Positions 1-63,190 of a stretch of DNA of 64,000 nt are shown here, piece after piece (the stretch's first letter is position 1; every line of letters starts with the position of its first letter). Source of the stretch: Acetatifactor sp. GTDB lineage: Bacteria; Bacillota; Clostridia; Lachnospirales; Lachnospiraceae. A program made the translations under genes and the position numbers. The stretch covers positions 990-64,989 of the forward strand of contig JAILHH010000001.1 of NCBI GenBank assembly GCA_024695935.1, written 5' to 3'. The notes under the pieces were generated by a model that searched no databases, was not told the origin of the DNA, and was given only the letters and a program-made list of their open reading frames with translations.

Positions 1-293
1 CTTATAATGTTATTCAGCAGTGCAAAGCTGACGGAACTCTTGATCAGCATGTAAAGCTCATCATCACTGATATCGAGATGCCTGAAATGGATGGTCACAG
101 ACTTACAAAACTTGTAAAGTCAGATGATGTTACAAAGCATATTCCCATCGTTATCTTCTCATCCCTTGTAAATGATGAGATGAAGAAAAAAGGTGAGGCA
201 CTTGGCGCTGATGCTCAGTTGTCTAAGCCTGAGATCGGAAATCTGGTCCGTATCATTGACGGAATCGTGGCTGAAAAAGGATTGGATAAATAA
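1..293 (+). CDS. C-terminal fragment of a CheY-like receiver domain, probably CheV (CheW-CheY fusion). The 5' end lies outside the window.
   Basis: Frame 3 reads through from position 3 without stops. It translates to ...DLIITDIEMPEMDGHRLTKLVKSD...IPIVIFSSL...KPEIGNLVRIIDGIV, which carries receiver-domain motifs (DIEMPxMDG, conserved Lys after the beta-5 region). A terminator follows. Confidence 0.6.
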   Translation, partial: YNVIQQCKADGTLDQHVKLIITDIEMPEMDGHRLTKLVKSDDVTKHIPIVIFSSLVNDEMKKKGEALGADAQLSKPEIGNLVRIIDGIVAEKGLDK

Positions 294-307
294 TAGTACA
301 TTTACCT

Positions 308-338
308 GAGCCGGTTAAATGACCGGCTCTGTTTTTTT
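308..338 (+). terminator. Rho-independent terminator after the cheV-like gene
   Basis: Hairpin gagccgg-ttaaatga-ccggctc followed by tgttttttt. Confidence 0.7.
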
Positions 339-347
339 GGAGTAGTT

Positions 348-1082
348 ATGGAAGATTTGTTTTTTGATGAATTAAAAAAAGATATTGAGGATGCAGAGCT
401 TGTTTTGATAGGCCTTGGCGAAGAGTTTGACCCCACCGAAAAGTGTTCTGTGGAAGAATTCGGATCTTTTGCACCTGTGATAAATTCAGAGATTGATGCG
501 GAAAAAGCAGACAGGATGACAAAAGGACTTGAAAAGCTTCAGGCTCTGATCGGTGGGAAAAATCATTTTTATATTTCCACATCCGTTAATCCTAGGATCA
601 ATAAGGTCTTTGTAAATGATGAAAAATTCGTTGCAACATGTACCGGTGCAATAGCTTTTCAGTGCCCTGCAGCATGTCTCGAAGGATACGCTTTCGGGGA
701 TGAAGAAGAGGTAAAAAAGATAGTAAGCATCAGGGATACAAAAGATTTTCAGCAATTTGGAAAGTGTCCGAAATGCGGAGAATACAGAGTGTTTAACAAT
801 ATATATGCACCCAAATATGACGAGCAGGGGTATCTGCCCATGTGGCAAAAATATACCAAGTGGCTGGAGGGAACAGTTAATAAAAAACTGGTTATCATTG
901 AATTGGGAGTTGGTTTTAAATTCCCTTCTATCATCAGATTTCCCTTTGAAAAGGTTGCATCTTATAATAAAAAGGCCAGATTTTACAGGATCAACGGGAT
1001 CTTTAGCAGCTTAACCGATACCATATCGGAAAAAGGTCATCATGTTTCCAAGAATGCGATTGAATGGCTTGAATTACTGTGA
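348..1082 (+). CDS. Hypothetical protein with a Cys4 module (QCPAAC ... CPKCGEY) flanked by hydrophobic beta-strand-like motifs (ELVLIGLGEEF, KKLVIIELGVGF). Possibly a Rossmann-like fold with an inserted zinc ribbon.
   Basis: 244-aa ORF with an RBS (ggag) 6 nt upstream of the ATG. I do not recognise a confident family. Confidence 0.55.
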   Translation: MEDLFFDELKKDIEDAELVLIGLGEEFDPTEKCSVEEFGSFAPVINSEIDAEKADRMTKGLEKLQALIGGKNHFYISTSVNPRINKVFVNDEKFVATCTGAIAFQCPAACLEGYAFGDEEEVKKIVSIRDTKDFQQFGKCPKCGEYRVFNNIYAPKYDEQGYLPMWQKYTKWLEGTVNKKLVIIELGVGFKFPSIIRFPFEKVASYNKKARFYRINGIFSSLTDTISEKGHHVSKNAIEWLELL

Positions 1083-1127
1083 TAAACTTTAATTGATTAA
1101 ACGAATAAACTACCCAGGGGGAAAGAC

Positions 1128-3962
1128 ATGTCATCACAGGAAGATTATCTTGATAGTTTATTAAAAGACATGACGGAAAATGTTCCGGAAAATTCAGCAG
1201 AGTCCAGATTGACGGAGTCTGGTTTTTATAATGCCAATAATACTGAAAATGAAGAAAAATCTGATGTTGAGGACTTAAGTTCAGAAGCCGAGGTCTTGAA
1301 TTCCGATGTTGATGCTGTAAATACTATTTCTGAGGATTTGAATTCAGATACTGAGAATTTTGATGAGGGGGATCTTAATTTTGAAGATTTGGATTCCCTG
1401 CTTGAGGATGTGTCTCTCGACAGTTCTTTGGCAGAAACTGTGGAAGCAGAGGTTCCTGAAGTGGATGTTTCGGAATCAGTTGAAACTCCTAATATAGATG
1501 AAGGTGCCACGGAAGATTTTGATGCAAATGCAATTGAAAATATCGAAGAAAGCGTCGATGAAGACATTAATACAACTACAGATGAAATAAAATTCGGTGA
1601 GGGTGAATTTACAATTACCGACGAGGAACTTTATGGTGAATCGTCAGATCCTGAAGCTCAAAGTGAACCTGATTTTATGCCTGTTACCGAAGAAGAAACA
1701 GTTGCAGAAGATTTACCCATAGAAGATACAGTTGTAGATGAGTCTCCTGTTGAGGAGATGCCTTTAGAAGAGGCAGATACTGAGTTATCTTTAACGGAGG
1801 AAATTCCTGCAGAGGAAGATATTCCTGCAGGTGCTTTAGCTTCTGCAGATTTAGAAGTTATTGATGATACAGATGTTTTTGCTGAGTCAGACATTCCTAT
1901 AGAGTCAGAAATCCCTGTAGAATCAGAAATCCCTGTAGATACAGAGATCCCCAATGAGACAGAGATGCCTTTAGAAGAGGCAGATACTGAGTTATCTTTG
2001 ACAGAGGAGATACCCGCTGAGGAGGATATTTTTGCAGAGCCTGAAACTCCTGATGAAGCCGAAATTCCTGCCCGGGCGGGCGTGGTGGCAGAGGAAATCG
2101 GACCTGAAGTTATAGATGGTCCGGGCGACCTTTTAAATGAAACAGGCGATGTGGATGCAGATGCAGATATTGTAGCTCCCACAGTGGAAGACACCGCAAA
2201 TATGTCTGCGGAAGATATTGAGAAAATGCTTCAGAACGCTGAGGCTTTAGGAAGTGAACCCGAAACTGCAGCTGAACCTGATCTCATGGATATGCTCGCT
2301 GCAGAAGACGGCGAGGACTTTAAGGATATTGAGGAAAGCCTTAAAAAAGATGAAAACAACGAGGCTATAAGTGCAGATATAGAGGCCATGCTCTCAAGTG
2401 ACAGCGATGAAAAAGAAATAGACCTGGATGACCTTGATAATATAGATGATGTACTGAATGATTCTGTGGCCGGCACCGAAAACGAAGCCGTTGAATCTGA
2501 GGAATCTGAGGAAGAAAGCCCCAAAAAGAAAAAGTCTCTTTTCGGAGGTCGAAAGGGCCGTAAGGATAAAAAGAATAAGGGTAAGGACAAAGAAGCTGAA
2601 GCCGATGAAGAGGAAATGACAGACGAACCGTCAGGTCCTTCTGAGACGGAGCTTGAATTTGCTGCCATGCAGGAAGAAAAATCTGCCGAGGCTTTGGAGG
2701 AAGTCCCTGAGGAAACCGAAGAAAAAATTGTAGATCTTACAAATCCCGTCATCGACCTTGAGCCCGACGCAGGCAAAGAGGATGAGCTTACTCCCATTGA
2801 TGATATGGATGATATAGATTCACTTCTTGCTTCTGCCAGCAAAACCGTGGATGCAAACGGTGAAGTGGTTGATGATCTTATGCCTTTGGAGGAGGATTTC
2901 CCCATTCTGGATGAAGGGGAAGACCTTGTTCCTCTGGATAGTGAGATGAGTGATGCACCAGCGAAGGATGCAGGTGAGCCAAAGGAAGAGGAAAAGAAAG
3001 GCTTCTTTGCGAAGCTTTTCAGCAAACTGACAGAGTCTGAGGATGATGATAAGCCCGAGGCCGAGCAGATCCAGCTTTCTGATGAAAATAAAGAGATCCT
3101 GGAGGAGATGGACAAAGACAAAAAGGGCAAGAAGGATAAAAAGAAAAAAGGCAAGAAGGGTAAGGGCAAGGAAGAAGGTGCAGATGCCGAGGCAACTGAG
3201 GGTGAAGACGGCGAAGAAGCACCAAAGGAAGATAAGAAAAAGAAAAAGGAAAAGAAACCTAAAAAGGAAAAGAAAGAAAAACTTGAGGAAGTCAGTCCCT
3301 ATGCTTCCACAAAGAAACTTTCATTAAAAAAATGCCTTCCCATAATTTTATTTGCAGCAACCATAGGCGGTGTGATCTTGTTTGTGGTAAATGTGGGCGG
3401 AAGTTTTGCCATGAAGAATGCAGCCCATAAGGCATTTTATGAAGAGGACTATGAGACAGTATATCAGAATCTTTACGGTAAGAAACTGAATGAGTCCGAA
3501 GAAGCCATGATGGGTAAGGCCGAGAGTATTTTAAAGATCAAATTCTGGTTAAGAGAATACGAGATGTTTGCTGACAACGGTGAAGAAGCAAAGGCTTTGG
3601 ATAATCTGATCCAGTCTGTTGGCCATTACGGCACTTTATATGACAAGGCGGTTAAGTATAATGCCGCGTCCGAAGTTGCAGAAGTATATTCAAAGTTCAT
3701 TATGATACTTGGTGACAAATATCATCTGACCGAGGATCAGGCCTTTGAGATATATGAGACCAAGAATGATATCGATTATTCCAGAATGATCTATACAATT
3801 ATCCGGGGAGGTCAATATGGTGACTGGGTTGGTCAATACGAGCTTTCGGAGGAAGAGATCCGGGCCATTTACGATGAAGTAAACGGTGGCAGTTCCTCTG
3901 CCGGTGACAAGATCCCCGGAGAAGAAGATATAAAAGAGACAGAATATATACTTGGAGAATAA
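1128..3962 (+). CDS. Large, highly acidic, low-complexity single-pass membrane protein. It has about 720 aa of D/E-rich repeats and two K-rich patches, then one TM helix, then a roughly 210-aa C-terminal globular domain.
   Basis: 944-aa ORF with a strong RBS (cagggggaaagacATG). The composition is dominated by E/D/S/T. TM segment LPIILFAATIGGVILFVVNV lies near residue 720. The C-terminal domain has normal composition. Confidence 0.8.
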   Translation: MSSQEDYLDSLLKDMTENVPENSAESRLTESGFYNANNTENEEKSDVEDLSSEAEVLNSDVDAVNTISEDLNSDTENFDEGDLNFEDLDSLLEDVSLDSSLAETVEAEVPEVDVSESVETPNIDEGATEDFDANAIENIEESVDEDINTTTDEIKFGEGEFTITDEELYGESSDPEAQSEPDFMPVTEEETVAEDLPIEDTVVDESPVEEMPLEEADTELSLTEEIPAEEDIPAGALASADLEVIDDTDVFAESDIPIESEIPVESEIPVDTEIPNETEMPLEEADTELSLTEEIPAEEDIFAEPETPDEAEIPARAGVVAEEIGPEVIDGPGDLLNETGDVDADADIVAPTVEDTANMSAEDIEKMLQNAEALGSEPETAAEPDLMDMLAAEDGEDFKDIEESLKKDENNEAISADIEAMLSSDSDEKEIDLDDLDNIDDVLNDSVAGTENEAVESEESEEESPKKKKSLFGGRKGRKDKKNKGKDKEAEADEEEMTDEPSGPSETELEFAAMQEEKSAEALEEVPEETEEKIVDLTNPVIDLEPDAGKEDELTPIDDMDDIDSLLASASKTVDANGEVVDDLMPLEEDFPILDEGEDLVPLDSEMSDAPAKDAGEPKEEEKKGFFAKLFSKLTESEDDDKPEAEQIQLSDENKEILEEMDKDKKGKKDKKKKGKKGKGKEEGADAEATEGEDGEEAPKEDKKKKKEKKPKKEKKEKLEEVSPYASTKKLSLKKCLPIILFAATIGGVILFVVNVGGSFAMKNAAHKAFYEEDYETVYQNLYGKKLNESEEAMMGKAESILKIKFWLREYEMFADNGEEAKALDNLIQSVGHYGTLYDKAVKYNAASEVAEVYSKFIMILGDKYHLTEDQAFEIYETKNDIDYSRMIYTIIRGGQYGDWVGQYELSEEEIRAIYDEVNGGSSSAGDKIPGEEDIKETEYILGE

Positions 3963-3967
3963 TTTTT

Positions 3968-4588
3968 ATGATCGCTTTAATAGATTATGATGCGGGAAAT
4001 ATCAAGAGTGTTGAAAAAGCTCTTGATTTTCTTGGCGCGGAAAATGTTTTGACCAGAGACCCCTCTGTGATATTGAATGCTGATGGTGTTATCCTGCCCG
4101 GTGTTGGAAGCTTTGGCGATGCCATGGAGAGATTAAAGGGTTACGGTCTTTGTGATGTTATTAAAAAAGTATGTGAAAAAGGCACTCCTTTTTTGGGTAT
4201 CTGTCTGGGACTTCAGCTTTTGTTTGATTCTTCCGAAGAATCAGTCGGTGTTGAAGGCCTGGGTATCTTAAAGGGAAAGGTTAAAAAGATTCCGGACGCG
4301 GAAGGACTCAAGGTTCCTCACATGGGCTGGAATGACCTTTCATATCCTTCAAAGGGTAGACTTTTTTTGGGGATTCCCGAGAATTCTTATGTCTATTTTG
4401 TTCACTCTTATTATCTTGAGGCACAGGATGAAAGCATTGTGAAAGCCACAACAGATTATGGCACACTTATACATGCTTCCGTTGAACAGAGAAATGTATT
4501 TGCATGTCAGTTTCATCCGGAAAAAAGCAGTGAAGTGGGTCTAAAGATCCTGCAAAACTTCCTGAATGTAGTAAAGGAGGGAAAATAA
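3968..4588 (+). CDS. hisH: Imidazole glycerol phosphate synthase, glutamine amidotransferase subunit
   Basis: [15 protein letters not shown]...[14 protein letters not shown]...GICLGLQLL...FHPEKS. Classic class-I GATase HisH motifs (catalytic Cys in GICLG, His/Glu near the C-terminus). Confidence 0.92.
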
Positions 4589-5349
4589 TGTACACAAAGA
4601 GGATCATTCCCTGCCTTGATGTAAAGGACGGAAGAGTTGTAAAAGGTGTTAATTTTGTTAATTTAAAAGATGCCGGTGATCCGGCTGAACAGGCGTCTGT
4701 TTATGACAAGGCCGGCGCGGATGAACTTGTTTTTTTGGATATAACCGCTTCAAGTGATAACAGAGATACACAGCTTGAATGGGTCAGAGAAGTTGCTGCC
4801 AATGTTTTTATCCCCTTTACTGTAGGGGGAGGCATCAAGACTGTTTCTGACTTTAAAGCAATTCTCCGTGAGGGCGCGGACAAGATCGCCATCAATTCGG
4901 CGGCTATCATGAATCCGAAACTCATAAACGAGGGAGCTGAAAAATTCGGAAGCCAATGTGTTGTTGTAGCAATAGATGCAAAGAAAAGGCCTGATGCTGA
5001 AGGCTGGACCATCTACAAAAACGGCGGAAGAGTTGACATGAACATTGATGCCGTGGAGTGGGCCAGACGCGCCGAAAAACTGGGCGCCGGTGAAATCCTT
5101 TTAACCAGTATGGACTGTGACGGCACGAAGTCAGGGTACGACCTTGAACTTACAAAGGCCATCGCATCATCGGTTTCAATTCCGGTTATTGCCAGCGGCG
5201 GTGCGGGCAGTTTAAAGGATTTTTATGATGTTTTTGATGAGGGATGTGCAGATGCAGCCCTTGCGGCATCTCTTTTCCATTACAAGGAACTTGAGATCAG
5301 AGAAGTAAAAGAGTATTTGAAGGATAAAGGCATCAGTGTTCGTCTATGA
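4588..5349 (+). CDS. hisF: Imidazole glycerol phosphate synthase, cyclase subunit
   Basis: [20 protein letters not shown]...[11 protein letters not shown]...AIDAKK. HisF TIM-barrel signatures. The start overlaps the hisH stop (TAATG). Confidence 0.92.
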
Positions 5350-5367
5350 TGCCGGATTTGGAATATT

Positions 5368-6042
5368 ATGGGAATGATCGAAAACGACTGGCTAGCGCCA
5401 TTGTCGGTTGAATTTAAAAAAGATTATTATAAAGAACTGTTTAAATTTGTAAAGAAAGAGTATTCGGAATATACGATTTTCCCAAGGTCAGAGGATATTT
5501 TCAATGCTTTCCATTACACGCCTTTAAAAGACGTGAAGGTGGTGATCCTCGGACAGGACCCGTATCATGATTTCGGTCAGGCACACGGGCTTTGCTTTTC
5601 GGTTTTGCCCGGAGTGGACACGCCCCCTTCGCTTGTAAATATTTACAAAGAATTACAGGATGATTTGGGCTGCAGGATCCCTAATAACGGATGCCTCGAA
5701 AAATGGGCTCGCCAGGGAGTGTTGCTTTTAAACACGGTTTTGACTGTCAGAGCTCATCAGGCTAATTCCCACAGAGGAAAAGGCTGGGAAGAGTTTACGG
5801 ATGCGGTCATACGTATACTGGATCGTGAGGACAGACCCATTGTTTTCATACTTTGGGGGAAGCCTGCTCAGACCAAGAAAGGGATGTTAAAAAATCCAAA
5901 GCATCTGATCCTTGAAGCGCCTCATCCCAGTCCGTTATCTGCTTACAGAGGATTCTTTGGCAGCAAGCCATTCAGTAAGACCAATGAATTTTTGGAAAAA
6001 AATGGACTTTCACCTATTGACTGGCAGATAGAGGACATATAA
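5368..6042 (+). CDS. ung: Uracil-DNA glycosylase
   Basis: [10 protein letters not shown]...[10 protein letters not shown]...[17 protein letters not shown]...HPSPLSA. Family-1 UDG motifs. Confidence 0.92.
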
Positions 6043-9416: not shown

Positions 9417-9499
9417 GCCGGTGTGTCGGAATGGCAGACGAGGCAGACTCAAAATCTGTTTGTGGCAACACAGTGTGGGTTCAAGTCCCACCACCGGCA
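9417..9499 (+). tRNA. tRNA-Leu (anticodon CAA), class II with a long variable arm; no encoded CCA
   Basis: Acceptor stem GCCGGTG / CACCGGC plus discriminator A. Anticodon loop CTCAAAA (CAA at positions 34-36). Long variable arm. T-loop GGTTCAAGTCC. Confidence 0.85.
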
Positions 9500-12847: not shown

Positions 12848-13450
12848 ATGAGATTTATAGGCATAACCGGAGGCGTTGGAGCCGGGAAAAGCGCGGTTTT
12901 GGACTATATAAGAGATAATTACAACTGCAGGATTTATCTTGCCGACAATGTGGCCCATCTTTTGTATGAAAAGGGCACGGATTGCTATAAAGAGCTGGTG
13001 AAGCTTTTATCGGAAAGCATTCTGGATGAAGAGGGTAACATTGATAAAAAAAAGATGGCTGCCGCTATTTTTGCTGACGGATCGCTTTTGGACAAGGTTA
13101 ATGATATCGTTCATCCGGCAGTCAGAGAATATCTCTTAAGAGAGTTTGAATTGGCAAAAGAATCAGGTGAGTATGACTTTTTCTTTGTGGAAGCCGCTCT
13201 TTTGATAGAGACGGGCTACAAGGATCTGGTGGATGAATTGTGGTATATATATGCGGATCCGGATGTGAGACGAAAACGCTTAAAGGAAAGCCGCGGATAT
13301 GATGATAAAAAGATCGATTCAATACTGGAGAGTCAGCTTTCTGATGAGGAATTCAGGAAAAATTGTGATGTGATCATAGACAACAGCGGGGACCTTTTTG
13401 ATGTCTATTGCAAAATTGATAAAATACTGGAGGGTTACAAATGTCATTAA
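12848..13450 (+). CDS. coaE: Dephospho-CoA kinase
   Basis: MRFIGITGGVGAGKSAV Walker A; 200 aa. Confidence 0.9.
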   Translation: MRFIGITGGVGAGKSAVLDYIRDNYNCRIYLADNVAHLLYEKGTDCYKELVKLLSESILDEEGNIDKKKMAAAIFADGSLLDKVNDIVHPAVREYLLREFELAKESGEYDFFFVEAALLIETGYKDLVDELWYIYADPDVRRKRLKESRGYDDKKIDSILESQLSDEEFRKNCDVIIDNSGDLFDVYCKIDKILEGYKCH

Positions 13451-15600
13451 CTAAAGAGGGTCAGGGACAACTTGTTTTCGGATTGGATATCGGAACCAGA
13501 AGTATCGTAGGCACTGTGGGATTTATGAAGGATAATAAATTCCATGTGATAGCTCAGAGGGCAAAAGAGCATGAGACCAGAGCCATGCTTGACGGACAGA
13601 TCCACGATATCATAAAGGTGGGCTCCAGCATAAAGGCTGTAAAGGAACAGCTGGAGGAAGACCTGAATGTGGAATTAAAGGATGTCTGCATAGCTGCTGC
13701 GGGACGTGTGTTAAAAACCGTAACCACCCATGCAGAGACCGACTTTGAGTCTGACAAAGAGGTGGAGGAGATCGATATCAACAATCTCTCAAGCTATGCC
13801 ATAGAGAGAGCTTATGAGCAGTTTCAAAAGGAAAATGATACGGATCTGAAGTTTTATTGTGTGGGATACACCCCCATGCGCTATTATATGAACGGATATC
13901 AGATAGGTAATCTGGAAGGGCACAAGGCAAGGCAGATAGGCCTGGACCTGATCGCCACGTTTTTGCCGGATGATGTTGTGGATGGCCTGTACAAAGCGGT
14001 GGAGCTTGCAGAACTCCACGTTGCAAATCTGACTTTGGAGCCCATAGCCGCCATTCAGGTTGCCATCCCGGAGAAATTCAGGATGCTCAATATGGCTCTT
14101 GTTGATGTGGGAGCCGGCACAAGCGACGTTTCCATCACAAAGGACGGAACCATCACTGCATACGGAATGATACCTGTTGCGGGGGATTCCCTTACGGATA
14201 TCCTGGTTCAGCACTGCCTTGTTGATTTTGACACCGCAGAGATGATAAAGAGAAAATCCGGTGTTGAAGATATAATAGAATATAACGATATCATGGGATT
14301 AAAGCAGACCATTTCCGCAAAGGAAGTCTCAGAACTTTTGCAAACAGAAGTGGAGAGCATGACGGAAAAGGTTGCAGAATGCATAAAGGATTTAAACGGT
14401 GACAAGCCTGTAAGCGCCGTGTTTGTGGTAGGCGGAGGCGGAACCGTTCCGGGTTATACCGAAAGCCTTGCAAAGAAGCTTGGAATAGTGACAGAGAGAG
14501 TTGCCATCAGAGGCGAGGAAGTCATGGGCAATATTGTTTTTGACATGGAAAATGCCGAAAAAAGTTCCCTTATGGTAACGCCCATCGGAATATGTCTCAG
14601 CTATTATGAGCAGAATAATAACTTTGTCATCGTTGATTTTAATGGGGAGAGAGCAAAGCTTTATGACAACGGACATCTGACTGTGACGGATGCCGCCATG
14701 CAGCTGCAGTTTCCCAATGAGGATCTGTTCCCGAAGCGCGGAAAGGCACTTACTTTTACCGTTAACGGAAAGAGCCATATGATGCGTGGTTCCCTCGGGG
14801 AAGCTGCCATTATCAAGGTAAATGACGAACCTGCGGATATGTATACCCAGGTTCACGGCGGGGATATCATTTCCGTTATTCCTTCCACAACCGGTGAGGA
14901 TGCAAAGATCGAGATCGGAAGGATAAAAGAATTTACAGAGCAGATATCCATTGTTGTAAACGGCAAAAAGATCGTTCTGCCTAAAACAGCAAACGTATCC
15001 GGGAAACTGGTAAATGAATATACATCCGTTTTAGAAGGAGACAATATTGAGATCCACAACTATTATACCGTAAAGGAAGTTGCTGAATTTTTGGATCTTG
15101 ATATCACAGGTGATATATTTGTAAACGAGACAAAGGCAAATTTAAATACAAAGGTTTATGAAGGATTTACCTTATCCTTTGAAAATGATGCCGTGTCTGT
15201 TTATGCAAAAGAAAACGAAAATAATGCAGAGGATAAAGAGCCGGATAAAGATCCTGTAAAAACCGGTGCTTCAGTTAAAAATGAAGGATCAGTATCCGGT
15301 CAGGGAAGTAACGAAATCCACGAAGAAAAACCTGCAGAAAAGAATGATGAAAGCGCAGAAGAATCAAACACTTCATCAACTGATCAGGTATTGAATATAC
15401 CTTTAAGTGTGACGGTCAACGGCAAGCTTTACAGGCTTTCAGGAAAGCCATCCTATGTATTTGTAGACGTCTTTGATTATATAAACTTTGACCTTAAAAA
15501 TTCTCAGGGCAGATCCATAGTCACTCAGTTAAACGGAAGAAGCGCTGAGTATATGGAAAAACTCAAAGACGGAGACGTTATAAATATTTATTGGAAATAA
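13441..15600 (+). CDS. FtsA-like actin-family ATPase with a long C-terminal extension containing three beta-grasp-like repeats
   Basis: LVFGLDIGTRSIVGTVG phosphate-1 motif, FtsA-like SHS2 insert, DVGAGTSD phosphate-2, VVGGGG adenosine motif. The C-terminal 300 aa contain three VNGK...GDxIxI modules. Confidence 0.7.
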   Translation: MSLTKEGQGQLVFGLDIGTRSIVGTVGFMKDNKFHVIAQRAKEHETRAMLDGQIHDIIKVGSSIKAVKEQLEEDLNVELKDVCIAAAGRVLKTVTTHAETDFESDKEVEEIDINNLSSYAIERAYEQFQKENDTDLKFYCVGYTPMRYYMNGYQIGNLEGHKARQIGLDLIATFLPDDVVDGLYKAVELAELHVANLTLEPIAAIQVAIPEKFRMLNMALVDVGAGTSDVSITKDGTITAYGMIPVAGDSLTDILVQHCLVDFDTAEMIKRKSGVEDIIEYNDIMGLKQTISAKEVSELLQTEVESMTEKVAECIKDLNGDKPVSAVFVVGGGGTVPGYTESLAKKLGIVTERVAIRGEEVMGNIVFDMENAEKSSLMVTPIGICLSYYEQNNNFVIVDFNGERAKLYDNGHLTVTDAAMQLQFPNEDLFPKRGKALTFTVNGKSHMMRGSLGEAAIIKVNDEPADMYTQVHGGDIISVIPSTTGEDAKIEIGRIKEFTEQISIVVNGKKIVLPKTANVSGKLVNEYTSVLEGDNIEIHNYYTVKEVAEFLDLDITGDIFVNETKANLNTKVYEGFTLSFENDAVSVYAKENENNAEDKEPDKDPVKTGASVKNEGSVSGQGSNEIHEEKPAEKNDESAEESNTSSTDQVLNIPLSVTVNGKLYRLSGKPSYVFVDVFDYINFDLKNSQGRSIVTQLNGRSAEYMEKLKDGDVINIYWK

Positions 15601-62924: not shown

Positions 62925-63190
62925 AAACATGAATTTAGCGTTGAAGAGAAGAAGTAACCGGAATAATTGTACTGACAGAGAGTTGCCGGCAGGTGAGAGG
63001 CACGAGGAAAATCCGGAGAAATACATCTTGGAGCTGCAGAGGTGAACTTACAGTAGTCTTTGCCGGTGGGCACCGTTAACGGCCGGGGTATTGATTGATA
63101 CCTGTTAAGGCAGTATTTGTGAGAATACTGTGAAAAAAGGTGGTAACACGAGACAGATGCTCGTCCTTTAAGGGACGGGCTTTTTTTGTT
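62925..63190 (+). ncRNA. T-box riboswitch leader (probable tyrosine specifier) with a terminator/antiterminator
   Basis: Conserved T-box sequence AAAGGTGGTAACACGAG (about 63136-63152), then terminator cgtcc...ggacg plus ttttttt (63159-63190). A GAGA/AGAGA stem-I element lies at about 62975. The downstream gene is tyrS, and a UAC-containing loop (GAAAUACAU) lies near 63025. Confidence 0.75.

What the first reader, a model, noticed from the sequence alone, without database searches (positions are those of the whole stretch)
1128..3962. 944-aa hyper-acidic, intrinsically disordered N-terminal region anchored by one TM helix to a 210-aa C-terminal domain
About 720 residues are dominated by D/E/S/T with interspersed EIP/ESEIP motifs. 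Two strongly basic K-rich patches (KKKKSLFGGRKGRKDKKNKGKDK and KKGKKDKKKKGKKGKGK...KKKKKEKKPKKEKKEK) lie within the acidic sea. A single TM helix follows, and then a well-composed C-terminal domain that would be extracytoplasmic if the acidic part is cytoplasmic. The gene sits between a cheV-like gene with a Cys4 hypothetical and hisHF. Such architectures are seen in scaffolds of motility or chemotaxis, anti-sigma-like and phase-separating proteins.
Basis: seen in the sequence. Interest (0 to 1): 0.6.

Follow-up and report, generated by a model that had tools for sequence, protein, structure and literature searches.

The report
CheV-linked acidic disordered membrane scaffold protein
This gene encodes a real, conserved but unnamed gut-bacterial (Lachnospiraceae) membrane protein with a very long, acidic, floppy tail inside the cell that carries short conserved docking motifs; it always sits next to the chemotaxis gene cheV, so it may be a membrane scaffold for the swimming-control machinery, though this is untested.

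Summary
ORF 1128..3962 (+) encodes a 944-aa protein: residues 1-735 are 33.5% D/E (net charge -181, pI 4.05), followed by one TM helix (736-758) and a confidently folded all-alpha C-terminal domain. AlphaFold gives pLDDT <50 for 618 residues. The only ordered cytoplasmic pieces are short helices that coincide with conserved motifs.

Conserved elements are an N-terminal "MPSQEDYLDxLLK", a four-unit island of EIDAL-like helices, basic tracts, "KKGFFxKLF", "LSDENxxIL", the TM helix, the alpha domain and an acidic "LPEEEEL" tail.

Every one of about 70 loci with upstream sequence has cheV immediately upstream, across four or more different flanking contexts. Two Fusicatenibacter loci keep hisH-hisF-ung but lack both genes.

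Best reading (about 0.4): an N-in/C-out membrane-anchored scaffold that recruits chemotaxis or flagellar partners. It would be a Gram-positive analogue of HubP/FimV or ChePep, not a member of either family. The Cys4 neighbour is a SirTM-like sirtuin with its catalytic residues replaced. Function remains inferred.

The parts
3..293 (+). 3' end of cheV (C-terminal part of its receiver domain; the gene is cut by the window start)
   Evidence: Response_reg hit. Full-length orthologues are CheW + Response_reg. Receiver signature residues ITDIEMPEMDG / IFSS / LSKPE are present.
308..339 (+). Intrinsic-terminator-like hairpin plus T-run just after cheV, ending 9 nt before the next start codon
   Evidence: 9-bp stem with 6 GC pairs, then TGTTTTTTTG. 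There is no room for a promoter before 348.
348..1082 (+). 244-aa SirTM-like (class M sirtuin fold) protein with a Cys4 zinc ribbon and replaced catalytic residues; accessory partner gene present in most but not all clades
   Evidence: An ortholog profile hits PDB 5A3A SpySirTM at E=4e-20. GAG->GEE, N118->S, Q137->C, R192->V against the residues defined in PMC4518038. The gene is absent in L050/51/64-66, L069-77, L081-89.
1116..1122 (+). Ribosome-binding-site-like AGGGGGA upstream of the ATG at 1128
   Evidence: Read directly from the sequence.
1128..3962 (+). The 944-aa gene: bitopic N-in/C-out membrane protein of an unnamed Lachnospiraceae family
1128..1178 (+). N-terminal conserved motif MSSQEDYLDSLLKDMTE (family consensus MPSQE[DE]YLDxLLK), predicted amphipathic helix
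   Evidence: Present in 119/151 representatives. M1, E5, Y7, L8, D9, L11, L12 are invariant in A4. Helix 4-17 has pLDDT 70-74. Hydrophobic moment 0.38.
1377..1406 (+). Extra EIDAL-like copy NFEDLDSLLE
   Evidence: Motif scan with shuffle control.
1755..2052 (+). Lineage-specific expansion of the acidic region: 91-nt duplication (1755-1845 / 1962-2052) flanking an 18-nt ESEIPV tandem repeat (1884-1951)
   Evidence: Not conserved in homologues.
2184..2396 (+). Conserved island of four tandem EIDAL-like helical units (MSAEDIEKML / PDLMDMLA / FKDIEESLKKDENNEAI / ADIEAMLS)
   Evidence: Alignments A4 and A6. Helices 353-373, 386-391, 396-409, 416-422 have pLDDT 55-80. Motif enrichment is 9-46x over shuffles.
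2520..2591 (+). Basic patch 1, PKKKKSLFGGRKGRKDKKNKGKDK (a K/A-rich tract in homologues)
2802..2834 (+). Extra EIDAL-like copy DMDDIDSLLAS (closest in this protein to literal EIDALL, 2 mismatches)
2988..3032 (+). Basic-aromatic motif EEKKGFFAKLFSKLT at a fixed distance (about -118 residues) from the TM helix
   Evidence: Helix 626-635. Amphipathicity is not significant.
3069..3113 (+). Conserved helix IQLSDENKEILEEMD (family LSDENxxIL, about -90 residues from the TM helix)
   Evidence: Present in 152/199 members. S651, E653, N654 are invariant. Helix 652-662 has pLDDT ~79. Hydrophobic moment 0.50.
3114..3281 (+). Two juxtamembrane lysine tracts (residues 663-681 and 701-718) separated by an acidic spacer
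   Evidence: K-runs at about -77 and -42 in 196/199 members.
3333..3401 (+). Single transmembrane helix CLPIILFAATIGGVILFVVNVGG
   Evidence: KD 2.66. One TM in 203/204 members with a positive-inside N-flank. Helix 733-771 in both models.
3402..3884 (+). Extracytoplasmic all-alpha domain (about 7 helices) with no recognisable relative
3906..3959 (+). Acidic C-terminal tail DKIPGEEDIKETEYILGE (family consensus LPEEEEL....F[IV]DN)
   Evidence: P207 and E209 of A1 are invariant or near-invariant.
3968..6042 (+). hisH, hisF and ung: downstream genes tightly packed with the target (5-nt gap), conserved block
   Evidence: Pfam; synteny.

Best explanation
The gene encodes a bitopic membrane protein with its N-terminus in the cytoplasm and its C-terminus outside. 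It belongs to a large, unnamed, Lachnospiraceae-wide family.

A long, hyper-acidic, intrinsically disordered cytoplasmic arm of freely varying length carries a fixed set of short helical docking motifs:
- an N-terminal SQEDYLDxLL helix;
- an island of four EIDAL-like helices;
- basic tracts;
- a juxtamembrane module at fixed distances from the membrane: KKGFFxKLF, LSDENxxIL and two lysine tracts.

A single TM helix connects this arm to an orphan all-alpha domain in the cell envelope.

I propose it works as a membrane-anchored scaffold or landmark. The external domain and the lysine-rich juxtamembrane module fix it at the membrane or envelope. The acidic arm recruits or sequesters cytoplasmic components of the chemotaxis/flagellar system through its motifs. 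The most plausible partners are receiver domains (the adjacent CheV, or CheY-P) or FlhG, the two protein classes documented to bind EIDAL(L) motifs.

Functionally this would be a Gram-positive analogue of HubP/FimV or ChePep.

Shown: architecture, disorder, motif conservation, topology signal, and the conserved cheV adjacency. Inferred: the identity of the partners and the scaffold role.
For: (1) The family is real and large: 1,082 representative clusters, with the domain always C-terminal in proteins of 200-1,200 aa. The architecture is identical in about 200 members.

(2) The arm is disordered, with ordered helices only at conserved motifs. Conservation islands lie in an otherwise unalignable region.

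(3) The core [DE]-hydrophobic-[DE]-x-[LM]-[LM] is enriched 9x family-wide (279 observed vs 29.9 expected) and 46x in its strict form. Altered-spacing controls give 0.5-0.7x. The window protein has 4 copies vs 0.31 expected. 49/204 members have a hexamer within 1 mismatch of EIDALL, against 4.1 expected.

(4) EIDAL(L) is the documented CheY-P binding site of FliM/FliY (PMC6946799, PMC9126983). It is also necessary and sufficient for FlhG binding (bioRxiv 10.1101/2022.04.21.489128; PMC12826062).

(5) cheV lies immediately upstream in all loci with upstream sequence: about 58 of L001-L066, 7 of L068-L077, and 5 HisH-anchored contexts. This holds even though the genes upstream of cheV differ: RR-HK-ABC, tig-clpPX-engB, pfkB-ptsI, or a CBM protein.

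(6) Two Fusicatenibacter loci keep hisH-hisF-ung but lack cheV, the SirTM-like gene and this gene together. No discordant case was seen.

(7) The adjacent CheV has an intact receiver domain.

(8) Acidic, largely unstructured membrane-anchored or polar chemotaxis/flagellar organisers have precedent: HubP/FimV (PMC12918733) and ChePep (29.6% D+E, PMC3143842).
Against: - No experiment or complex prediction links any motif to any partner.
- The adjacency to hisH-hisF-ung is almost as conserved as that to cheV and is surely not functional, so synteny in this lineage can be merely inherited. All loci are from one family (Lachnospiraceae).
- The co-absence evidence rests on one genus, and only at this site.
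- The motif resemblance is class-level. Literal EIDALL occurs in 0/204 members, and the window protein has nothing within 1 mismatch.
- The most conserved N-terminal motif is offset by one residue relative to SQxEIDALL.
- The same S-x-E-E-I-E-x-M/L pattern occurs as a generic helix cap, for example the Hsp70 lid.
- The gene is tightly packed with housekeeping genes and not in a che/fla cluster. A terminator separates it from cheV.
- No flagellar genes lie in the part of the window that was annotated, up to about 22 kb.
Confidence: 0.4

Rival explanations
1. It is a general cell-envelope, morphogenesis or division scaffold. The architecture resembles MapZ or RodZ: a conserved N-terminal cytoplasmic motif, a disordered linker, a TM helix and an extracytoplasmic domain that reads the cell wall. 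The cheV adjacency would be inherited gene order without functional meaning.
For: The architecture fits. The gene is embedded among and tightly packed with housekeeping genes: hisHF, ung, DAP dehydrogenase, LD-carboxypeptidase, PolA. A terminator follows cheV. hisHF-ung synteny shows that non-functional linkage persists in this lineage.
Against: There is no sequence or fold similarity to any known envelope or division protein. cheV adjacency survives four different upstream contexts, and the pair is absent together in Fusicatenibacter while hisHF-ung stays. No division or wall-synthesis gene is consistently adjacent.
Confidence: 0.25
2. It is a transmembrane signalling or anti-sigma-like sequestration device. 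The external alpha domain senses an envelope cue, and the cytoplasmic motifs hold a regulator (a sigma factor, response regulator or similar) that is released on signal or proteolysis.
For: The bitopic N-in/C-out layout with a conserved extreme N-terminal motif is typical of anti-sigma factors. There are weak RskA_N hits in 5/24 island segments, best E 0.0023.
Against: There is no zf-HC2, RskA or other anti-sigma domain at significance. No sigma factor gene is adjacent in any locus. The conserved motifs sit 300-700 residues from the membrane in a hyper-acidic arm, unlike compact anti-sigma domains.
Confidence: 0.1
3. It is a non-specific polyanionic or condensate-forming element. The acidic arm with clustered lysine blocks would act as a cation buffer, an entropic brush or a self-associating (coacervating) layer at the membrane, without dedicated partners.
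For: Extreme composition: net charge -181, pI 4.05. Lys residues are strongly clustered into three blocks. The length of the acidic region is free to vary from 300 to 1,000 aa and expands by duplication.
Against: Position-specific conservation of several short motifs across clades that share only 26-30% identity in the folded domain argues for specific partners. The global charge-segregation measure is not above shuffles (z = 0.8).
Confidence: 0.08
4. It is the substrate or regulatory partner of the adjacent SirTM-like protein, for example through ADP-ribosylation or another modification of the acidic arm. That pair, rather than CheV, would define its function.
For: The SirTM-like gene lies directly upstream with a 45-nt gap in most Acetatifactor-type loci. 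Canonical SirTMs modify a small acidic protein encoded in the same operon (PMC4518038).
Against: The SirTM-like gene is missing in many clades that keep cheV plus target. Its NAD loop and all three catalytic positions are substituted. No macrodomain, GcvH-L or LplA2 is nearby. Loss of the N-terminal motif does not track loss of the sirtuin gene.
Confidence: 0.07

Closest known systems
HubP / FimV polar landmark proteins (Gammaproteobacteria)
   Same: A single-pass membrane protein with an envelope-exposed domain and a long, largely unstructured, acid-rich cytoplasmic region of highly variable length and repeat content. These proteins organise flagellar (FlhF/FlhG) and chemotaxis components (PMC12918733, PMC12826062).
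   Different: Topology is inverted: HubP has its N-terminus outside and C-terminus inside, while this protein is N-in/C-out. There is no LysM domain and no C-terminal FimV/TPR domain (Pfam). There is no sequence homology. The host is a Gram-positive Lachnospiraceae. Client binding is proposed to occur through short motifs in the acidic arm, rather than through a terminal TPR domain.
ChePep (Epsilonproteobacteria)
   Same: [quoted passage not shown] It is functionally tied to chemotaxis control and polar localisation (PMC3143842). The window protein's cytoplasmic arm is 33.5% D+E.
   Different: ChePep is soluble and has an N-terminal receiver-like motif. This protein has a TM helix and an external domain and no receiver domain. 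Instead it is encoded next to a receiver-containing CheV. There is no homology.
FliM / FliY N-terminal EIDAL(L) peptide
   Same: Short acidic amphipathic helices of the pattern S-x-[DE]-[DE]-I-[DE]-x-L-L, including one at the extreme N-terminus. 49/204 members have a copy within 1 mismatch of EIDALL, and 17 have EI[DE]ALL. The motif binds CheY-P and FlhG in FliM/FliY.
   Different: There is no CheC-like or SpoA domain, so this is not a switch protein. No member has literal EIDALL. The N-terminal motif has an extra residue (SQEDYLDxLL vs SQxEIDALL). Copies are multiple and internal. Binding is untested.
MapZ/LocZ (streptococci) and similar bitopic positioning proteins (comparison from my own knowledge)
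   Same: A conserved N-terminal cytoplasmic motif, a disordered linker, one TM helix and an extracytoplasmic domain.
   Different: There is no detectable sequence or fold similarity. The arm is far longer and hyper-acidic. There is no link to division genes.
SirTM (class M sirtuins), for the 244-aa neighbour
   Same: Full-length profile match to SpySirTM 5A3A (E=4e-20) with the Cys4 zinc ribbon retained.
   Different: The GAG NAD loop becomes GEE, Asn118 becomes Ser, Gln137 becomes Cys and Arg192 becomes Val. There is no macrodomain, GcvH-L or LplA2 operon partner.

Membership tests
HubP/FimV | Periplasmic LysM-like peptidoglycan-binding domain | tested here: not met
   No LysM hit in Pfam at E<=1 for the full protein or the C-terminal domain. 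The external domain is all-alpha.
HubP/FimV | C-terminal FimV/TPR client-binding domain in the cytoplasm | tested here: not met
   No such Pfam or NCBIfam hit. The C-terminus is extracytoplasmic by the positive-inside rule.
HubP/FimV | Single TM plus an extensive acid-rich, largely unstructured cytoplasmic region | tested here: met
ChePep | Conserved N-terminal response-regulator-like motif | tested here: not met
   No Response_reg hit in the 944-aa protein. The N-terminus is a 13-residue helix motif.
ChePep | Poly-E/D-rich composition (about 30% D+E) | tested here: met
   33.5% D+E in residues 1-735.
FliM/FliY switch proteins | EIDAL(L) CheY-P/FlhG-binding motif | tested here: inconclusive
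   The motif class is strongly enriched, but there is no literal EIDALL. The window protein's best copy is DIDSLL (2 mismatches). A generic helix-cap pattern is also possible. Binding was not tested.
FliM/FliY switch proteins | CheC-like middle domain and/or SpoA (FliN) C-terminal domain | tested here: not met
   No Pfam hit. The model shows no folded cytoplasmic domain.
Anti-sigma factors (zf-HC2 / RskA type) | N-terminal anti-sigma domain and a co-encoded sigma factor | tested here: not met
   Only sub-threshold RskA_N hits in 5/24 island segments. No sigma factor gene in any neighbourhood.
Known anti-phage defence systems (SIR2-containing) | Match to a PADLOC defence protein model; location in a variable island | tested here: not met
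   No PADLOC hit for either protein. The locus is core and syntenic across the family.
SirTM (for the neighbour at 348..1082) | Sirtuin fold with zinc ribbon | tested here: met
   Profile vs 5A3A at E=4e-20 over about 250 positions. Four conserved Cys.
SirTM (for the neighbour at 348..1082) | Catalytic Asn118, Gln137 and Arg192 and the GAG NAD loop (PMC4518038) | tested here: not met
   The aligned positions are Ser, Cys, Val and G-E-E respectively, conserved as such across 30 orthologues.
SirTM (for the neighbour at 348..1082) | Operon with a macrodomain, GcvH-L and LplA2 | tested here: not met
   None are present in any locus.

The most novel reading that the evidence does not exclude
Lachnospiraceae possess a previously unrecognised, non-homologous counterpart of the proteobacterial HubP/ChePep hubs. 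It would be a membrane-anchored, hyper-acidic disordered arm displaying a multivalent array of EIDAL-type decoy peptides. These would bind phosphorylated receiver domains (CheV-P or CheY-P) and/or FlhG at the membrane. The protein would thereby localise chemosensory components, buffer CheY-P, or set flagellar number and position. Its orphan external alpha domain would read the cell envelope for positioning. In one sub-lineage a catalytically rewired SirTM-like protein would act as an added regulator.
Probability: 0.3. Interest if true: 0.8.

Novelty: new variant of a known kind. Interest (0 to 1): 0.58.

Why it matters
Motile Lachnospiraceae (Roseburia, Agathobacter, Acetatifactor and relatives) are abundant gut commensals. 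From my own knowledge, their flagellins are prominent immune targets. Even so, almost nothing is known about how these Gram-positive anaerobes position and regulate their chemotaxis and flagellar machinery.

The reviewed landmark proteins (HubP, FimV, FipA) are proteobacterial. The recent review states that landmarking beyond monotrichous proteobacteria 'remains unclear' (PMC12826062).

A family with more than 1,000 sequence clusters that is invariably paired with cheV, and is built like an inverted HubP, gives a concrete, testable candidate. It would also be a clean bacterial example of function encoded by short linear motifs in a rapidly evolving disordered region.

Independently, the neighbouring SirTM-like protein, with all catalytic positions consistently replaced, is a lead for sirtuin-fold neofunctionalisation.

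Tried and rejected
Searches and jobs that gave nothing:
- The word-indexed homologue search with the C-terminal domain found nothing, and the alignment version found only 8 fragments named 'hypothetical protein'. The exhaustive representative search was needed.
- The single-protein scan of species genomes found nothing, and the 27-sequence alignment was too diverse for pattern design. A 6-sequence alignment worked.
- The exact-sequence look-up of the window protein found nothing.
- The plasmid search with hisH-ung found no match.
- The AFDB fold library was unavailable.
The PDB profile search replaced it.

Ideas rejected:
- The N-terminal motif is the docking site for the SirTM-like protein. 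Motif loss and gene loss do not co-vary: L035/43/47-49 have the gene but not the motif, and L051/L081-89 have the motif but not the gene.
- The pair is an anti-phage SIR2 system. There is no PADLOC hit and the locus is core and syntenic.
- KKGFFAKLF is an amphipathic membrane helix. Its hydrophobic moment equals the shuffle value (0.28 vs 0.27), so I describe it only as a basic-aromatic motif. From memory it resembles the GFFARL membrane-targeting motif of E. coli FtsY; this was not tested.
- The island is a known domain. Nothing is significant in the PDB or Pfam.
- The long antisense ORFs inside the gene (1658-2194, 2231-3169, minus strand) are genes. They are Ser-rich mirror images of the GA-rich codons.
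- The TALE-repeat hits of the C-terminal domain profile are meaningful. They are incidental, with no passing stretch.


Full report
**Observation.** The ORF is at exactly 1128..3962 on the + strand (ATG start, 944 aa). An AGGGGGA ribosome-binding-like site lies 5-6 nt upstream. Residues 1-735 contain 33.5% Asp+Glu and 8.8% Lys+Arg, giving net charge -181; pI is 4.05. The only hydrophobic segment is residues 736-758, with a Kyte-Doolittle 19-mer mean of 2.66. The Lys residues are concentrated in three patches (465-488, 658-681, 695-718). Each has 13 K/R per 24 residues, whereas shuffles never give three such windows. This is a recent, lineage-specific expansion and is not conserved in homologues. 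S+T is an unremarkable 12.7%.

**Disorder and fold.** I modelled the full-length protein with AlphaFold2 using 39 full-length homologues. 618 of 944 residues have pLDDT <50. Upstream of the membrane the only helices are 4-17, 353-373, 386-391, 396-409, 416-422, 626-635 and 652-662. These coincide with the conserved sequence islands described below. The TM helix runs directly into an all-alpha domain of about seven helices (residues ~759-919). That domain has pLDDT ~98 in a dedicated model.

**Family.** Pfam, NCBIfam, PADLOC and PDB sequence searches give nothing for the protein or its C-terminal domain.
- An exhaustive HMMER search of 1.84 billion representatives with residues 724-944 finds 1,082 clusters at E<=1e-3, of which 148 are at E<=1e-30. 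The match is always at the C-terminus of proteins of 200-1,200 aa.
- All named source genomes are Lachnospiraceae: Acetatifactor, Roseburia and many unnamed MAGs. The window itself comes from an Acetatifactor sp. MAG, shown by a 100% identical HisH.

**Conserved anatomy.** About 200 members share the same order of elements:
1. An N-terminal motif, MPSQE[DE]YLDxLLK, in 119/151 representatives. M1, E5, Y7, L8, D9, L11 and L12 are invariant among 40 full-length sequences.
2. An acidic region of freely variable length (about 300-1,000 aa).
3. A ~70-residue island (window residues 353-423) made of four tandem acidic amphipathic units. The consensus is MSEEEIERLL / DDLLDMLE / DLQDIQDLLEKSDNNEAV / DEIEALLQG.
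4. A basic K/A-rich tract.
5. A juxtamembrane module at nearly fixed distances from the TM helix:

| Element | Distance from TM helix | Occurrence |
|---|---|---|
| KKKG[FL]F[AS][KR][IL][LF] | about -118 residues | 106/199 by a strict pattern |
| LSDENxxIL | about -90 residues | 152/199 |
| Lysine tracts | about -77 and -42 residues | 196/199 |

6. One TM helix (203/204 members).
7. The alpha domain.
8. An acidic tail, LPEEEEL....F[IV]DN.

- **Topology.** Net charge of the 15 residues flanking the TM helix is +2.4 on the N side and +0.5 on the C side, with N>C in 160/204 members. There is no N-terminal signal sequence. This supports N-in/C-out.
- **Amphipathicity.** The N-terminal, island and LSDEN helices are amphipathic, with hydrophobic moments of 0.38-0.50, in the top 1-6% of shuffles. 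The KKGFFAKLF motif is not.
- **Divergent clades.** The most divergent clades keep different subsets of the N-proximal motifs. L064-66 lack the N-terminal motif but keep the island. L081-89 keep the N-terminal motif and only a compact or degenerate island. All keep the juxtamembrane module, the TM helix and the domain.

**Motif class.**
- *Enrichment.* The core [DE]-[ILMV]-[DE]-x-[LMI]-[LMI] occurs 279 times in 198 cytoplasmic arms against 29.9 expected from shuffles. The strict form occurs 113 times against 2.5 expected. Versions with one residue more or less between the acidic and Leu positions are not enriched (0.5-0.7x). The window protein has 4 copies against 0.31 expected.
- *Known partners of the motif.* This is the pattern of the EIDAL(L) motif at the N-terminus of FliM and FliY. 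That motif is the CheY-P docking site (PMC6946799, PMC9126983). It is also 'necessary and sufficient' for FlhG binding (bioRxiv 10.1101/2022.04.21.489128; PMC12826062).
- *Limits.* The resemblance should not be overstated. No member has literal EIDALL. 17/204 have EI[DE]ALL, and 49/204 have a hexamer within one mismatch (4.1 expected). The window protein's best copy is DIDSLL, with two mismatches. The N-terminal motif carries one extra residue relative to SQxEIDALL. The best (non-significant) PDB hits of the island profile are the Hsp70 lid helix LSKEDIEKMV, so the pattern also occurs as a generic helix cap.

**Neighbourhood.** The gene cut by the window start is the 3' end of cheV.
- Orthologous full-length genes are CheW + Response_reg. 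The receiver domain keeps the acidic pocket, phospho-acceptor Asp, Ser/Thr and Lys.
- In 66 species-representative loci the order is cheV - [244-aa gene] - target - hisH - hisF - ung.
- cheV is directly upstream wherever upstream sequence exists. This includes clades with only 26-30% identity in the conserved domain (L064-66; ten further metagenome loci) and five contexts reached independently through HisH.
- The genes upstream of cheV differ between clades: RR-HK-ABC/FtsX, tig-clpP-clpX-engB, pfkB-ptsI, or a CBM-containing protein. The cheV-target junction has therefore survived rearrangements on its left.
- Two Fusicatenibacter loci retain hisH-hisF-ung. In place of the trio they have an unrelated 234-aa protein and a BcrAD/DUF2229 gene. 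I saw no locus with only one of cheV and the target.
- The target evolves much faster than its neighbours: 44-62% identity where CheV is 79-92% and HisF about 75%.

Caveats on the synteny:
- All loci are from one bacterial family.
- hisHF-ung linkage is nearly as tight and is obviously not functional.
- Co-absence rests on one genus, and only at this site.
- A terminator-like hairpin (308-339) follows cheV and leaves no room for a promoter before 348.
- The target is followed after 5 nt by hisH. The rest of the annotated window is housekeeping.

**The Cys4 neighbour (348..1082).** A profile of 30 orthologues matches SpySirTM (PDB 5A3A) at E=4e-20 over its whole length, and a macro-SirTM fusion (8RSN) at 2.7e-12. 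I mapped the alignment onto the residues that PMC4518038 shows to be essential. The GAG NAD loop is G-E-E, Asn118 is Ser, Gln137 is Cys (a near-invariant 'PCG') and Arg192 is Val ('LNNVY'). The zinc-ribbon cysteines are kept, and no macrodomain, GcvH-L or LplA2 is nearby. It is therefore a rewired or inactive SirTM-like protein. It is absent from many clades that keep cheV + target, so it is an accessory and not the defining partner.

**Interpretation.** The shown facts point to a membrane-anchored scaffold whose function lies in short linear motifs. Those facts are a bitopic N-in/C-out protein, an orphan external alpha domain, a length-variable hyper-acidic disordered arm with position-specifically conserved helical motifs, and a lysine-rich juxtamembrane module at fixed spacing.

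The partners are inferred. The invariant pairing with cheV and the EIDAL-class motifs make receiver domains (CheV, CheY-P) or FlhG the leading candidates. The acid-rich hubs HubP/FimV and ChePep provide functional precedent. The protein fails the membership tests for all of these families: no LysM, no FimV domain, inverted topology, no receiver motif, no CheC/SpoA domains. The claim is therefore 'may work like', not 'is a'.

I put about 0.4 on the chemotaxis/flagellar scaffold reading. The rivals are:

| Rival reading | Confidence |
|---|---|
| General envelope or division scaffold, with synteny being incidental | 0.25 |
| Anti-sigma-like sequestration | 0.10 |
| Non-specific polyanion or condensate | 0.08 |
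| SirTM-partner function | 0.07 |

**Novelty.** I found no description of such a protein in the searchable literature, and no curated family covers it. I rate it as a new variant of a known kind (an acidic membrane-anchored hub), encoded by a new, large, lineage-specific family. Interest is moderate to high. The object is real, widespread and sharply defined, and the hypothesis is directly testable, but every functional statement is still inference.

Noticed in passing
window 348..1082 (+): The 'Cys4 hypothetical' is a SirTM-like class M sirtuin-fold protein (profile vs PDB 5A3A, E=4e-20). Its NAD loop and all three catalytic positions are consistently replaced (GAG->GEE, N118->S, Q137->C, R192->V). 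It has no macrodomain, GcvH-L or LplA2 partners, so it may be a pseudo-enzyme or a neofunctionalised sirtuin.
   Followed up: partly
window 308..347: A strong terminator-like hairpin plus T-run right after cheV ends 9 nt before the start codon of the SirTM-like gene. There is no room for a promoter. This implies either read-through from cheV or a promoter inside the cheV 3' end (a weak candidate lies at 229-256).
   Followed up: no
window 1755..2052: There is a recent internal 91-nt duplication (82% identity) and an 18-nt ESEIPV tandem repeat inside the acidic region. Homologues show other private repeats, for example IEEPV x many in L051. The disordered arm therefore grows by local duplication.
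   Followed up: partly
window 1658..2194 and 2231..3169 (- strand): Long antisense ORFs (178 and 312 aa, Ser-rich) lie inside the gene. They are mirror-image artefacts of the GA-rich acidic/lysine codons, not genes.
   Followed up: partly
window 3968..6042; loci L001-L090: hisH-hisF stand apart from other his genes and are always followed by ung (uracil-DNA glycosylase). This three-gene block is conserved even in Fusicatenibacter, where the cheV/sirtuin-like/target trio is absent.
   Followed up: partly
L079 9066..9770 and L088 5658..6362 (Fusicatenibacter): At the position of the trio these genomes carry an unrelated 234-aa N-terminally anchored protein with no Pfam hit, preceded by a 1,417-aa BcrAD_BadFG/DUF2229 protein.
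   Followed up: partly
window 13441..15600 (+): A 719-aa ORF has only a weak central FtsA/MreB/PilM-type actin-like ATPase match (E 1e-10 to 1e-7). It is much longer than canonical FtsA and has no counterpart cluster in the related loci compared.
   Followed up: no
window 62932..63171 (+) and 9417..9499 (+): A T-box leader (120 bits) lies near the window end and one tRNA gene lies at 9417-9499. Both are ordinary.
   Followed up: no
window 2988..3032 (residues 621-635): The KKGFFAKLFSKL motif, preceded by a long acidic region, resembles (from memory) the GFFARLKRSL membrane-targeting sequence that follows the acidic A-domain of E. coli FtsY. I did not test this. Its hydrophobic moment is not significant here.
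   Followed up: no
window 3702..3770 (approx. residues 859-881): The C-terminal domain profile gives incidental sub-threshold hits to TALE repeats (4OTO, 4HPZ), caused by a 'LTxEQAxEIA' helix-hairpin. I judged this not meaningful.
   Followed up: partly
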